From Eledone cirrhosa (lineage: Eukaryota): 64,000 nucleotides of DNA. The notes under the pieces are model-generated. The model was not told the origin of the DNA. It did no database searches and worked only from the letters and a program-made list of their open reading frames with translations. The DNA is taken from positions 19,964,001 through 20,028,000 of the forward strand of contig OZ024764.1 in assembly GCA_964016885.1 (NCBI GenBank), in the 5' to 3' direction. Of the stretch, positions 7,587 to 51,632 are shown piece after piece (position 1 is the stretch's first letter; every line of letters starts with the position of its first letter). The translations under genes were made by a program, and so were the position numbers.

Positions 7587-8867
7587 ATGTCGAAAAATAT
7601 AGTAAAATCACCATTCCACTGTGATATCTGTGGTAAATCATTCTCTCGTAGTAATCACCTAACTACTCACAAACGTATTCATACAGGAGAGAAGCCATAT
7701 CACTGTGATATCTGTGGTAAATCATTCTCTCGCAGTAATACCTTAACTAATCACAAACATATTCATACAGGAGAGAAGCCATATCACTGTGATATCTGTG
7801 GTAAATCATTCAGTCGCAGTAATACCTTAACTACTCACAAACGTATTCATACAGGAGAGAACCCATATCACTGTGATATCTGTGGTAAATCATTCACTTG
7901 TAGTCATCACCTAACTACTCACAAACGTATTCATACAGGAGAGAAACCATATCACTGTGATATCTGTGGTAAATCATTCAGTGACAGTAGTAGCTTCAGA
8001 GTTCACAAACAAATTCATACAGGAGAGAAACCATATCACTGTGACATCTGTGGTAAAACGTTCTCTAAAAACAATAGCGTAACTACTCACAAACGTATTC
8101 ATACAGGAGAGAAGCCATATCAATGTGACATCTGTGATAAATCATTCTCTCAAAGTAGTCACCTAACTACTCACAAACGTATTCATACAGGAGAGAAACC
8201 ATATCACTGTGATATCGGTGATAAATCATTCAGTGACAGTAGTAGCTTCAGAGTTCACAAACAAATTCATACAGGAGAGAAGCCACATCACTGTGACATC
8301 TGTGGTACATCATTCAGTCACAAAAGTAACTTAACTACCCACAAACGTATTCATACAGGAGAGAAGCCATATCAGTGTGATATCTGTGGTAAATCATTCT
8401 CTCATAGTAATCACCTAACTACCCACAAACGTATCCATACAGGAGAGAAGCCATATCAGTGTGATATCTGTGGTAAATCATTCTCTCGTAATAACCTAAC
8501 TACTCACAGACGTATTCATACAGGAGAGAAACCATATCACTGTGATATCTGTGGTAAAACATTCACTAAAAATAATAACCTAACTACTCACAAACGTATT
8601 CATACAGGAGAGAACCCATATCATTGTGATATCTGTGGTAAATCATTCTCTCAGAATAATCAGCTAACTTCTCACAAACGTATTCATACAGGAGAGAAGC
8701 CATATCACTGTGACATCTGTGGTAAATCATTCTCTCGTAGTAATCACCTAACTACTCACAAACGTATTCATACAGGAGAGAAGCCATATCACTGTGACAT
8801 CTGTGGTAAATCATTCTCTCATAGTGGTAACTTAACCAAGCATGTGCGTATTCATACAGAAGTTTAG
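7587..8867 (+). CDS. C2H2 zinc-finger protein A, 426 aa, 15 finger units (one Cys>Gly, one with a 1-aa deletion), no effector domain in the ORF
   Basis: Tandem CxxC-x12-HxxxH with TGEKPY linkers; intact ORF. Confidence 0.93.
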
Positions 8868-9130
8868 CTGTATCAATATCAAACTCATTACTACAACAAC
8901 AACAACAATTGTGTAGATCCATCATCCTGGCTAAAACTGGAGTCAACCTTGTAGGTTTTACCTATGACAGGGATCATAAACACCAGGTTTCCATTTTTGA
9001 AGTAGTGTTTGAAGATTTTGTGTAAATTAAAGTTTTTCACATCAAACTTTGATTTATTATACTTTAACAGGTAAGATATATATTTGTATTTTTAGTAAAG
9101 GTTTGGGAACTTCTGTAATTTAAACCTGCC

Positions 9131-9136
9131 AATAAA
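9131..9136 (+). promoter_or_regulatory. Candidate polyadenylation signal (also 36035 and 51900)
   Basis: AATAAA about 265 nt after the stop in all three copies, followed by a T/GT-rich tract. Confidence 0.55.
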
Positions 9137-9514
9137 ATGAAAACTTTTGTTGTTGTTAGTCAGACATTGATATTAATTCTATTGTCCTGTACATTGTCTC
9201 AAATATCACAGATTAAACAGATTTTAACAATAACAACAGAAGTCAATAACTTGTAAGCCTAATATCTAGCTTCCATTTTAACTATTTGATATTGTTGTTG
9301 CCCTCCTGTCTCTTCAGGTCTTTTAGATTTCAACTTCTATCTACTGTACTATTCCATCATCAAGGCAACATTCATCTGGCTGGCAGCTTACATCAACTAC
9401 AGATCTCATCAGTGGTTCACAACAGGCTGTCTGAAAGAAACTTGCTGATATCTTCTATGTCATAGCTATCAATCTCCTCCTCCTTATCATATGTATCATG
9501 TAGAACATCTCTGA

Positions 9515-10170
9515 ATTTATATTTAACAGGGAGATCTTTTACTGTCCCTACCCTTTTCTCTAGGTTGTCTTGTACCTCTCTCACAGTCCCTCTAGATCTT
9601 ATATTTAACAGGGAAATCTTTTACTATCCCTACCCTTTTCTCTAGATTGTCTTGTATCAGTCTCACAGTCCCTCTGGAACTTATATTTAATAGGGAGATC
9701 TTTTACTGTCTCTACCTCTTTCTCTAGGTTGTCTTGTACCTCTCTCACAGTCCCTCTAGATCTTATATTTAACAGGGAGATCTTTTACCTTCTCTACCCT
9801 TTTCTCTAGGTTGTCTTGTACCTCTCTCACAGTCCCTCTAGATCTTATATTTAACAGGGAGATGTTTTACTATCCCTACCCTTTTCTCTAGGTTGTCTTG
9901 TACCTCTCTCACAGTCCCTCTAGATCTTATATTTAACAGGGAGATCTTTTACTGTCTCTACCTCTTTCTCTAGGTTGTCTTGTACCACCCTCACAGTCCC
10001 TGTAGATCTTATATTTAACAGGGAGATGTTTTACTCTCCCTACCCTTTTCTCTAGGTGGTGTTGTACCTCTCTCACAGTCCCTGTAGATCTTATATTTAA
10101 CAGGGAGATTTTTACTCTCCAACCCTTCTACAGATAGTCTTGTATCTGTCAGTCCCTCTAGATCTTACAC
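9515..10170 (+). repeat. ~82-bp minisatellite (~8 copies; also 36418-36910 and, interrupted, 52733-54400)
   Basis: TCACAGTCCCTCTAGATCTTATATTTAACAGGGAGATCTTTTACT...GGTTGTCTTGTACCTCTC in tandem. Confidence 0.93.
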
Positions 10171-48509: not shown

Positions 48510-48542
48510 CTTTATCTACAAATCTAGTCGTTTCCTGCTACT

Positions 48543-49180
48543 TTGTTCCCTGGGGTATGCCTTAGTATTTGACACCATCTATCTGTCTTACTCCCTAACT
48601 AGCAAGAAGTCAATCTGCCTCATGTGCTCACCTGATTGGTAGGTTATTAGGTGGTTGGTAGGTTTCTTGAAGTGTTGCAAATGGTTAGTTCACTTGCATC
48701 ACAAAATACAAGAAGCCTCACTCCTTCATCGTTTCTTGAGCCATAACCATGACCACCATGTACCCCAGTATATCCATCCTGGAACTGTCCAACATGACCA
48801 TTCAAGTCCCCTGCTATTATAACTAGGTCTCTGTCATTGTGGTTATCTCTACTTATTCCTTTTCTACATATGGAGCAGGGCCACTTTCCTGAAGGTGTCA
48901 GGGTCTTCTCTCCTATCCATTACCACTTTAGTTTTGGCTAAGTATATTCTCAGAACTTACCATTTCAAATTCTATATCTATAGCTGGTCATCTACATAGA
49001 GAAGTTTCCATAGACAGCCAGTCTTAAACCTCTCTGTTATGGCTTGGAGAACTATGATGAACAACAGTGGGCTAAGAACTAAACCATGATGAACTCCTAC
49101 CTGTACCTTCAATTCCTCACTAAACACACTTTACTGACAGCTTCTCACAAGCCATTCTTCTACACCTAATTTCCTGAACC
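48543..49180 (-). mobile_element. RTE LINE relic remnant, copy C
   Basis: Paralog of ~6016-6645. Confidence 0.8.
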
Positions 49181-50684
49181 CTTTAGTATATAAACTGGCC
49201 ATATCTGGCCAGAATTCTCCCACATCTTTCTGTTCAAACTGGCCGTAATTGGTCACTTATACTTATGTTAAGGTATTGTTCTCAAAATAAATAACATGAA
49301 AATCTCAGATTTGACATTATGAGAGATAAAGCATTACTGTGAAAATATAATAGTAAATATAGAGTAATGTAAATACTAAAGGGTTAATCTAATGTCACTA
49401 ATAACTACTTTTATCAGTCAGTATAATCTAATGTCACTAATAACTACTTTTATCAGTCAGTATAATCTAATGTCACTAATAACTACTTTTATCAGTCAGT
49501 TTAATCTAATGTCACTAATAACTACTTTTATCAGTCAGTATAATCTAATGTCACTAATAACTACTTTTATCAGTCAGTATAATCTAATGCCACTAATAAC
49601 TACTTTTATCAGTCAGTATAATCTAATGTCACTAATAACTACTTTTATCAGTCAGTTTAATCTAATCTCACTAATAACTACTTTTATCAGTCAGTATAAT
49701 CTACTGCCACTAATAACTAACCTATGTTAGTCAGCACATTCTTCACCAAGGAAGGCCTTAGTATTTATTACAGTCCATTTATCAATATAGAAATATTCTA
49801 TGAAATTTGTACTGATGTATTACAAGTTTCTAAGTATCTTATAATGTTCTTTTATTATTTCAGAATACCAGAGGACATTGGCATTAAAGAGCACGTTACA
49901 TCAGACATATCCTCAATATTTACCATTTCTAAAATATTACCCATCATTTTCAAATAATTTTGAAAACACTCAACACTTTGAAGGGATTTAGTAATATAAC
50001 TAAATTTCTCAGTATTAAGCTGCTATTTGGAACATAACTTAGCACAATTTCATGAAGTTACAATGGAAAGTTTTTAGATAAATATAAAGACTGATATGAA
50101 AAGGATAAAACACTTTTATATCAGTTGTTTCATCAACACCATTATTTAAAGACTAAAGGAAGCTGTTATACAGAACAGATACAACCTTGTTTATATAAAT
50201 CTATGGGAGAAATACTGTGAAATATTTCTTGTAAACTCAATAACACTTCTATTCTTCGCTGTCTGGAATATGTAGAAGATACAAAATAAAGCTGAAGAAA
50301 TGTACACATGATTTTGTAAGATCTTCATATATTGACAAAGATGATAGTAGATGGAACTACAGGAGTAGAAATATTTCCATTATTACAGGAATAACTAATC
50401 AAATGAAGACCAGAAAAATTAGATTCTTCACTGTCTGGAATATGTACAAGATGATTTTATATGTATATTAAACTTGAAGAGATCTACAAAACAGTTTGTA
50501 TCATCTTTAAATATAAAGAAAGACCAAAGTTGATGTAAATATATCTGGAGGAATATGTTTTAGGAATAATATTATAAACATAAAGAAGAAAAATATCCAT
50601 ATATTCATATATTGACAGGAGAAAAATATTAAAACTGTGAATTATGTGAGAAACTGAGGTGATTGATATCTTTTAGTAGAAGAT

Positions 50685-51632
50685 ATGTCGAAAAATATAG
50701 TAAAATCACCATTCCACTGTGATATCTGTGGTAAATCATTCTCTCGTAGTAATCACCTAACTACTCACAAACGTATTCATACAGGAGAGAAGCCTTATAA
50801 GTGTGATATCTGTAACAAATCATTCAGCCAAAGTAGTAGCTTAACTTGTCACAAACATATTCATACAGGAGAGAAACCATATCACTGTGATATCTGTGGT
50901 AAAACATTCTCTATTAATAATCACCTAACTACTCACAAACGTATTCATACAGGAGAGAAGCCATATCACTGTGATATCTGTGGTAAATCATTCTCTGGCA
51001 GTAGTAGCTTCATTAAACACAAACGTATTCATACAGGAGAAGAGCCATATCACTGTGATATCTGTGGTAAATCATTCTCTCGTAGTAGTCACCTAATTAC
51101 TCACAAACGTATTCATACGGGAGAGAAGCCATATTACTGTGATATCTGTGGTAAATCATTCAGTCACAATAGTACCTTAACTACTCACAAAAGTATTCAT
51201 ACAGGAGAGAAGCCATACCACTGTGACATCTGTGATAAATCCTTCTCTCATCGTAGTGGCCTAACTACTCACAAATGTATTCATACAGGAGAGAAGACAT
51301 ATCACTGTGACATCTGTGGTAAATCATTCAGTCGCAGTAGAACCTTAACTACTCACAAACGTATTCATACAGGAGAGAAGCCATATCACTGTGATATCTG
51401 TGGTAAATCATTCGCTGACAGAAGTAGCTTATCTACCCACAAACGTACTCATACAGGAAAGAAGCCATATCACTGTGACATCTGTGGTAAATCATTCACT
51501 GACAGAAGTGGCTTAACTAGCCACAAACGTACTTATACGGGAGAGAAGCCATATCACTGTGACATCTGTGGTAAATCATTCTCTCGTAGAGGTAACTTAA
51601 CCAGGCATGTGCGTATTCATACAGAAGTTTAG
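50685..51632 (+). CDS. C2H2 zinc-finger protein C, 315 aa, 11 finger units (the 10th has His>Tyr)
   Basis: Intact ORF of tandem C2H2 fingers with TGEKPY linkers. Confidence 0.93.

What the first reader, a model, noticed from the sequence alone, without database searches (positions are those of the whole stretch)
7587..51632. Recently triplicated effector-less ZNF cassette with near-invariant flanks but hypervariable finger arrays
Seen: the three genes share the start ([11 protein letters not shown]), end (HVRIHTEV), 3' UTR and even dead flanking TEs at high identity. Yet they have 15, 22 and 11 finger units with largely non-corresponding recognition helices, and all three ORFs are intact while every neighbouring TE ORF is broken. 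Known: PRDM9 and KRAB-ZNF arrays evolve this way, and octopuses have large clustered C2H2 expansions. Inference: the 84-bp array is being reshuffled by unequal crossover or gene conversion between paralogs, giving a rapidly diversifying DNA-binding repertoire, possibly aimed at TEs, with no KRAB or other domain in the ORF.
Basis: partly seen in the sequence, partly recalled or inferred. Interest (0 to 1): 0.75.

Follow-up and report, generated by a model that had tools for sequence, protein, structure and literature searches.

The report
Two-hundred-copy shuffling zinc-finger gene array
The three genes are 3 of at least 205 near-identical zinc-finger genes lined up over about 4.7 million bases of what is likely an octopus chromosome; their DNA-reading fingers are rearranged from a shared older set, likely by recombination between copies, giving a large pool of likely DNA-binding proteins with no known control domain, and recent changes show no sign of an arms race with transposons.

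Summary
The three ORFs and finger counts are real, but this is no triplication. The start 21-mer occurs 205 times; all 199 located copies lie on one contig, over 4.7 Mb, about 18 kb apart. Each unit is a two-exon gene: non-coding exon 1, intron, then 5'UTR plus finger-only ORF; an intron-less retrocopy shows the splice. The family has lost most of a ~33-residue leader found at 112 other places. Among 183 copies: 6-28 fingers, 148 fingerprint arrays, 46 premature stops. Flanks differ ~3% and are mosaic. Finger number changes fast, but an intronic minisatellite changes faster. Contact-residue excess is old (1.9x); recent changes are near neutral (dN/dS 0.91, no contact enrichment), though stops are depleted. 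Gene A lacks a promoter; gene B's donor is mutated. Verdict: a macrosatellite-like ZNF array under concerted evolution with weak per-copy selection; TE targeting untested. The scan noted similar shuffling before in five paralogues elsewhere in this genome (e1-9557371).

The parts
7587..8867 (+). Gene A ORF, 426 aa, 15 finger units (13 canonical), 9-residue leader only
7376..7586 (+). Gene A exon-2 5'UTR (short, 211-nt class) behind acceptor TCTTTTATTATTTCAG
   Evidence: acceptor exact in 167 of 183 copies, variant ending TTTCAG in 10 more
1..1602 (.). End of an 827-bp satellite (31 long matches over ~27 kb, running upstream of the window) where A's exon 1 and promoter should be
27799..27860 (+). 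Gene B promoter-like motifs (CRE-, NRF1-, ETS-, E-box-like; names recalled)
   Evidence: the 18-mer occurs 188 times in G000
27856..27924 (+). Gene B non-coding exon 1; donor mutated GT>AT (1 of 43 hits with a readable donor)
33441..33908 (+). Gene B exon-2 5'UTR (468 nt)
33909..35771 (+). Gene B ORF, 620 aa, 22 units (19 canonical); 5' block of K-x-K-R fingers, 3' block with five H-N-H-I fingers
43876..43938 (+). Gene C promoter-like motifs
43934..43999 (+). Gene C non-coding exon 1 (no ATG), donor GTAAGT; 5' end taken from the retrocopy
44000..49863 (+). Gene C intron (5.9 kb; TE remnants, 39-bp minisatellite, 4-kb copy-specific stretch 44460-48539)
49864..50684 (+). Gene C exon-2 5'UTR (long, 821 nt), ending in the decayed front of the MEN leader
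50685..51632 (+). Gene C ORF, 315 aa, 11 units (10 canonical); the only one of the three with intact promoter motifs, donor and acceptor
51633..51905 (+). Shared 3'UTR up to AATAAA at 51900 (A: 9131; B: 36035); poly(A) use inferred
6857..7231 (.). Intronic 39-bp minisatellite (also 33199-33299, 49385-49719): neutral control for copy-number change
9517..10167 (.). Downstream 82-bp minisatellite (also 36421-36906, 52727-52951, 54119-54395): second control

Best explanation
This is part of a tandem array of at least 205 copies of one 16-18 kb, two-exon gene that encodes only C2H2 fingers; the copies likely exchange sequence by unequal crossover and gene conversion, which rearranges an older shared set of fingers into many arrays whose proteins would likely bind DNA as a redundant pool with no known effector domain. 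Shown: copy number and layout, exon structure, past transcription and splicing (retrocopy), mosaic flanks, finger gain and loss between close copies, shared finger set, loss of the leader's start codon, and fewer stops than neutral expectation. Inferred: the exchange mechanism (non-allelic homologous recombination), present-day translation, DNA binding, action by occupancy or competition at target sites rather than by recruiting a repressor, and selection acting on the family as a whole with each copy nearly dispensable. New specificities would arise mainly by recombination, not by current positive selection.
For: 205 exact starts; 199 located, all on C25 19.13-23.83 Mb, median spacing 17,947 bp. 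A further copy with a variant start lies near 23.86 Mb. Retrocopy on C7 joins exon 1 to exon 2. Donor GT in 42 of 43 hits. In-frame upstream ATG in 0 of 183. Four-gamete failure in 78-88% of flank SNP pairs more than 50 bp apart, r2 0.013-0.041, in 134 de-duplicated copies. Unit gaps in 7 of 31 nearest pairs under 0.2% flank divergence, 8 of 17 at 0.2-0.5%, 11 of 18 at 0.5-1%, 42 of 46 at 1-2%. 1507 of 1861 fingers carry a fingerprint found in 5 or more copies; 32 of 134 arrays have internal tandem duplications; 8 of 134 look like 5'/3' chimeras. Pool pS 0.26 far exceeds the 3% flank divergence, so the finger set predates the amplification. Rare recent changes relative to synonymous: stops 0.38 (9 seen, 19.0 expected, p=0.005), core F/L 0.28 (p=0.003), zinc ligands 0.57 (p=0.014). 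Canonical ORF end in 119 of 183 (86 of 134) against 41% simulated neutral without indels and 6-19% with them.
Against: In the close-pair test zinc-ligand changes were not significantly depleted (17 of 141, p=0.25) and dN/dS was 0.91 (p=0.59). With singletons only, stop depletion was not significant (p=0.08). 46 of 183 copies have premature stops. The long 5'UTR class holds 11-18 upstream ATGs (93 copies), which could block translation; ORF loss did not differ between UTR classes (15 of 64 vs 27 of 107, p=0.86). The neutral simulation assumes 1.65% divergence per copy; at 0.5% it gives 38-73% intact. No protein or binding data.
Confidence: 0.6

Rival explanations
1. Arms race: the arrays are under ongoing positive selection at contact residues to recognise and silence transposons.
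For: Contact pN 0.49 against overall pS 0.26 (1.9x) among 1020 unique fingers; zinc ligands 0.07x. With a looser frequency filter contact changes were 1.57x synonymous (23 seen, p=0.07). Predicted octopus ZNF motifs are enriched in TE libraries (PMC10547256, section 6 read). 148 fingerprint arrays in 183 copies.
Against: Recent changes are not enriched at contacts (25 of 141, p=0.41). Share of diversity at contacts has median 0.39 in 174 arrays, the same as unrelated L236 (0.39) and below human 0.687 and mouse 0.910 PRDM9 (PMC5519329, passages). No repressor domain. A non-coding repeat varies faster.
Confidence: 0.17
2. Passenger macrosatellite: a transcribed but largely functionless array that spreads by repeat dynamics; ORFs stay open because 84-bp units keep the frame and the copies are young.
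For: Recent dN/dS 0.91. The unit's own 39-bp and 48-bp repeats fill sampled gaps and the left edge as pure satellite (215-254 and 168-198 motif hits per 10 kb). A is promoterless, B's donor is mutated. Leader start codon lost; many upstream ATGs.
Against: Stops, core and ligand changes are depleted. Frameshift to in-frame indel classes are 13:11 in arrays against 108:35 in flanks (p=0.046). Donor kept in 42 of 43 hits, acceptor in 177 of 183. 175 of 183 ORFs keep 5 or more canonical fingers.
Confidence: 0.18
3. Assembly inflation: much of the array is falsely duplicated haplotype sequence.
For: Blocks of several genes recur at offsets of 866, 908 and 1081 kb with flank differences mostly under 0.5%.
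Against: Merging all copies within 0.5% still leaves 134 of 183; 165 distinct proteins. Some near-identical block pairs differ in finger number (12 vs 10).
Confidence: 0.05

Closest known systems
Clustered C2H2 ZNF expansions of coleoid cephalopods (PMC9068888, PMC9795677: passages; PMC12513265: first seventh of the text and passages)
   Same: Many-finger C2H2 genes in chromosome-level clusters made by tandem duplication.
   Different: The passages give no single-unit array of ~200 copies at ~3% divergence. [quoted passage not shown] Supplements were not read and may list such clusters.
Young mouse KRAB-ZFP clusters, e.g. Chr4 (PMC12575710, passages)
   Same: Multi-gene segmental duplications, TEs copied along with the blocks, many distinct fingerprint arrays (38-47 per strain), coding genes mixed with pseudogenes.
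   Different: No KRAB exon here; exon 1 is non-coding. 148 fingerprint arrays in the 183 copies analysed. TE binding is shown for many KZFPs and untested here.
PRDM9 zinc-finger coding minisatellite (PMC5519329, passages)
   Same: 84-bp minisatellite-like array, unit gain and loss, diversity peaking at -1, +2, +3, +6.
   Different: No KRAB, SSXRD or PR/SET; ~200 genes rather than alleles of one; contact share 0.39 against 0.69-0.91 in human and mouse; no recent contact enrichment.
Zebrafish chromosome-4 finger-only ZNFs and FiNZ-ZNFs (bioRxiv 10.1101/027151, PMC10547256: passages)
   Same: Hundreds of clustered many-finger genes first described as fingers only; a short N-terminal peptide later found in the family.
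   Different: FiNZ sits on its own upstream coding exon. Here the ~33-aa MEN leader of related ZNFs sits in the finger exon, and this family has lost its first two thirds.

Membership tests
Tandem (poly) C2H2 zinc-finger genes | Five or more tandem C2H2 fingers with TGEKP linkers in one ORF | tested here: met
   Pfam PF00096/PF13465 above cut-off for A, B, C; 175 of 183 ORFs
Tandem (poly) C2H2 zinc-finger genes | Transcribed and spliced | tested here: met
   Family level only: intron-less retrocopy on C7; hint from run X4. Not shown for A, B or C singly.
Tandem (poly) C2H2 zinc-finger genes | Sequence-specific DNA binding | not testable with these tools
   Needs ChIP, DAP-seq or SELEX
KRAB-ZNF | KRAB domain on upstream coding exon(s) | tested here: not met
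   Exon 1 has no ATG and none forms at the junction; no in-frame upstream ATG in 183 copies; only finger-type Pfam hits among the best 25 shown
KRAB-ZNF | Binding and repression of TEs | not tested
   No motif prediction or binding data
PRDM9 | PR/SET domain with KRAB and SSXRD | tested here: not met
   Spliced structure leaves a 9-residue leader before finger 1
PRDM9 | Minisatellite-like array with unit turnover | tested here: met
   84-bp period; 2198 of the internal units are exactly 84 bp; unit gaps between close copies
PRDM9 | Amino-acid diversity concentrated at DNA contacts, ranking top among the species' ZNFs | tested here: inconclusive
   Median 0.39, equal to the one other ZNF measured; no genome-wide ranking; I used -1, 2, 3, 6 and did not see which positions the paper uses
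FiNZ-ZNF-like (short N-terminal effector peptide) | Conserved short N-terminal peptide in frame with the fingers | tested here: not met
   Leader start codon lost and frame broken in this family; the leader is present in L221, L236 and matches 112 places
Macrosatellite-type gene array under concerted evolution (definition recalled) | Many multi-kb tandem units at high identity with mosaic variation | tested here: met
   orientation switches in blocks (160 forward, 45 reverse)

The most novel reading that the evidence does not exclude
Octopod many-finger genes carry an undescribed ~33-residue N-terminal 'MEN' leader that is their KRAB/FiNZ-like effector. This 200-copy array, having cut that leader off, is a recombination-driven library of effector-less competitors that occupy the same kinds of sites and so shield them from, or tune, the leader-bearing repressors, with the repertoire differing between individuals.
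Probability: 0.12. Interest if true: 0.82.

Novelty: new variant of a known kind. Interest (0 to 1): 0.5.

Why it matters
Cephalopod C2H2 expansions are known as counts and clusters; how new specificities arise in them is open. This array shows the process at work: about 200 young copies, one finger alphabet, recombination as the generator, and built-in non-coding controls that separate repeat dynamics from selection. It warns that contact-residue excess in a finger pool need not mean a current arms race. A shared start and UTR make the whole family reachable by one knockdown, as was done for zebrafish FiNZ-ZNFs. The conserved leader in other ZNFs of this genome is a candidate for an octopod effector domain.

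Tried and rejected
No RNA holder listed. Run X4 (kind not on record) has a contig starting exactly at the acceptor with 30 exon-1 letters in front and no intron cover, while X1 and X3 run through the intron; 30 letters is one short of the tool's bridging rule, so it is a hint only, and contig depths were not used as copy number or expression. Second acceptor just before the ATG as a route to an upstream coding exon: rejected as the main form, since exon 1 is non-coding and an X4 contig reads across it; minor use is not excluded. The 43-codon IPEDIG frame at the start of exon 2 as a domain: no start codon, no Pfam hit, no homologue; treated as 5'UTR. My first idea that the ATG lies in a decayed finger: dropped after alignment to L221 showed a decayed leader. 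Exact protein look-up found 0 of 3. The whole-protein search listed generic ZNFs of 41-64% identity and no cephalopod name among the 120 rows; the leader search found no candidate; so the taxon is not established by a call. The Atlas did not hold the sequence. The 112 leader matches could not be read as DNA, so their finger content is inferred from frame length. Array-specific recombination: not seen, linkage is equally low within flanks and across the array. The original octopus genome paper was not held. 'Not in print' rests on six searches; (macrosatellite + zinc finger + concerted evolution + C2H2) found 0 papers. No supplements were read. No TE-binding prediction, finger phylogeny or structure prediction was run.
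Full report
Observation. The window holds three long open frames made of 84-bp C2H2 units: A 7587-8867 (15 units, 13 canonical), B 33909-35771 (22, 19) and C 50685-51632 (11, 10), with the same first and last residues. Self-alignment shows a repeated unit of about 16 kb with 92-97% identical blocks; unit A is longer because a 3.72-kb piece is tripled. In three flank segments the trio differ 2.8-4.0%, their best-aligned fingers 11.8-13.0%.

Scale. The exact start 21-mer occurs 205 times in G000, reversed control 0. 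The 199 copies I could place all lie on C25 between 19.13 and 23.83 Mb, median spacing 17,947 bp. A copy with a variant start near 23.86 Mb shows that 205 is a lower bound; a 10-kb sample at 23.88 Mb has no match. I fetched 180 of the 196 placed copies outside the window (16 left out by position, two of them fetched later and not counted) and analysed 183 with the window's three.

Gene structure. 177 of 183 copies keep an acceptor ending TTTCAG, mostly 211 or about 817 nt before the ATG. A contig of run X4 starts exactly there with 30 foreign letters, which map to 27895-27924 and 43970-43999. A copy on C7 joins 66 exon-1 positions directly to about 480 letters of exon 2 without the intron: a processed retrocopy, showing that the family was transcribed and spliced. 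Exon 1 has no ATG, is preceded by promoter-like motifs (names recalled; 188 exact copies) and ends in GTAAGT in 42 of 43 hits. The exception is window gene B. Gene A has no exon 1 or promoter in the window or the 30 kb before it, where an 827-bp satellite lies. So only C of the three is complete. No copy has an in-frame upstream ATG (0 of 183), so the spliced form encodes fingers behind nine residues.

Lost leader. Two more distant ZNFs, L221 (C3) and L236 (in a gap of this array), share the acceptor and begin their ORF with an acidic leader of about 33 residues starting MENK. Alignment shows that this family keeps the decayed DNA of that leader but has lost its ATG and starts at the internal Met. 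The L221 leader matches 112 places at E<=0.001 among 150 scored of 590 candidates, on 17 contigs, 107 of 112 in frames of 200 aa or more (the query included the first residues of finger 1, and I read only these two loci). It has no Pfam match and no database candidate. Whether it is an effector is untested.

Repertoire. Of 183 copies, 119 reach the canonical end, 18 share a truncated last finger, 20 stop late and 26 early; 175 keep five or more canonical fingers; there are 165 distinct proteins and 148 fingerprint arrays; arrays have 6-28 units, one parse giving 3. Among 134 copies left after merging those within 0.5%, 1507 of 1861 fingers carry a fingerprint present in five or more copies, common fingers have up to 27 different successors, 32 arrays have internal tandem duplications and 8 look chimeric.

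Mechanism of change. Flanks differ about 3%, with no relation to physical distance. Distances from four flank segments are uncorrelated (rho -0.09 to 0.09); common SNPs more than 50 bp apart have r2 0.013-0.041 and fail the four-gamete test in 78-88% of pairs, within flanks as well as across the array. Exchange between copies therefore covers the whole unit. Unit gaps appear in 7 of 31 nearest pairs under 0.2% flank divergence and 42 of 46 at 1-2%. Where fingers can be paired, they differ 0.27, 0.37 and 0.50% against flank 0.08, 0.35 and 0.71% in the three closest bins. As a control, finger number differs in 6 of 31 closest pairs, the intronic 39-bp repeat in 12 of 27 and the 82-bp repeat in 3 of 20. 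Finger turnover thus lies within the range of neighbouring non-coding repeats. Multi-gene blocks recur at offsets of 105 kb to 1.08 Mb.

Selection. Among 1020 unique fingers, contact pN is 0.49 against pS 0.26, zinc ligands 0.02. Since pS far exceeds flank divergence, this alphabet is older than the amplification. Recent change is different: in 143 finger pairs from 78 close links there are 141 replacements and 41 silent changes (dN/dS 0.91, p=0.59), 25 at contacts (p=0.41) and 17 at ligands (p=0.25). Rare alleles show depletion of stops (0.38), core (0.28) and ligand changes (0.57) but not linker or other sites; that filter removes nearly all contact alleles, and a looser one gives 1.57x at contacts (p=0.07). 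Frameshifts are under-represented (p=0.046) and intact ORFs exceed the neutral simulation at 1.65% divergence, less clearly at 0.5%. The contact share of diversity has median 0.39 in 174 arrays, like L236 and below human and mouse PRDM9 (PMC5519329, passages).

Reading. The best fit is a macrosatellite-like ZNF array under concerted and birth-and-death evolution: selection keeps many frames open, single copies are nearly dispensable, and recombination supplies new finger orders. Translation, DNA binding and action by site occupancy are inferred. A TE arms race, a passenger array and assembly inflation are the rivals.

Literature. I saw passages of PMC9068888, PMC9795677, PMC13218726, PMC12988792, PMC12575710, PMC5519329 and bioRxiv 10.1101/027151, the first seventh and passages of PMC12513265, and passages plus section 6 of PMC10547256. 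Clustered cephalopod C2H2 expansions, block duplication in young mouse KZFP clusters and finger-only fish ZNFs are known. Six searches showed no description of such a single-unit array or of the leader; the original octopus genome paper and all supplements were not seen and may bear on this.

Verdict. Observation partly confirmed; interpretation partly supported; new variant of a known kind; interest 0.5.

Noticed in passing
L221:1098-1205 (-), L236:2951-3055 (+); 112 places in G000: Conserved acidic ~33-aa N-terminal leader starting MENK on other ZNF ORFs; no Pfam or database match; candidate octopod effector peptide.
   Followed up: partly
L211 / L235 (G000:C7:49.447-49.448 Mb): Processed retrocopy of the family: exon 1 joined to ~480 nt of exon 2, cut off before the fingers, beside a long (TA)n tract.
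   Followed up: yes
window 1-1602 and L223-L225: 827-bp AT-rich satellite with internal inverted repeats, about 27 kb long, with a strand switch in L225; it lies where gene A's exon 1 should be.
   Followed up: partly
L237, L238 (39-bp) and L226-L228 (48-bp): The unit's own minisatellites fill whole 10-kb samples in gaps of the array and at its left edge as pure satellite.
   Followed up: partly
window 11916-23372: A 3.72-kb segment tripled at 98% identity in unit A, carrying broken hAT-like transposase frames on the minus strand (family recalled from motif; no Pfam hit).
   Followed up: no
window 10396-10750, 37135-37487, 54624-54977: Each unit carries, downstream of the 3'UTR, an older (66-77%) relic of a ZNF exon-2 5' region.
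   Followed up: no
L071, L109, L068, L077 and window gene B: Sub-family with runs of up to 12 near-identical K-x-K-R fingers, which would suit a target with 3-bp periodicity (inference).
   Followed up: no
L035, L042, L045; L148-L149; L089: Very closely spaced or inverted copies: promoter on the opposite strand about 1.3 kb before the ATG in L035, L042, L045; two ATGs 2.9 kb apart at 22.44 Mb.
   Followed up: no
L236 (G000:C25:20.45 Mb): An intact 564-aa leader-bearing ZNF of another family sits inside a gap of the array; its fingers are 3-11 nt from the nearest array finger.
   Followed up: partly
window 44460-48539 and 60036-64000: Copy-specific stretches: one with broken LINE-like frames in C's intron (type recalled), one with integrase and DUF7047 fragments at the window end.
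   Followed up: no
window 23532-25292, 40202-41392, 56841-58566; 4070-6650: Broken Tc5/pogo-type transposase and reverse-transcriptase remnants copied with the unit.
   Followed up: partly
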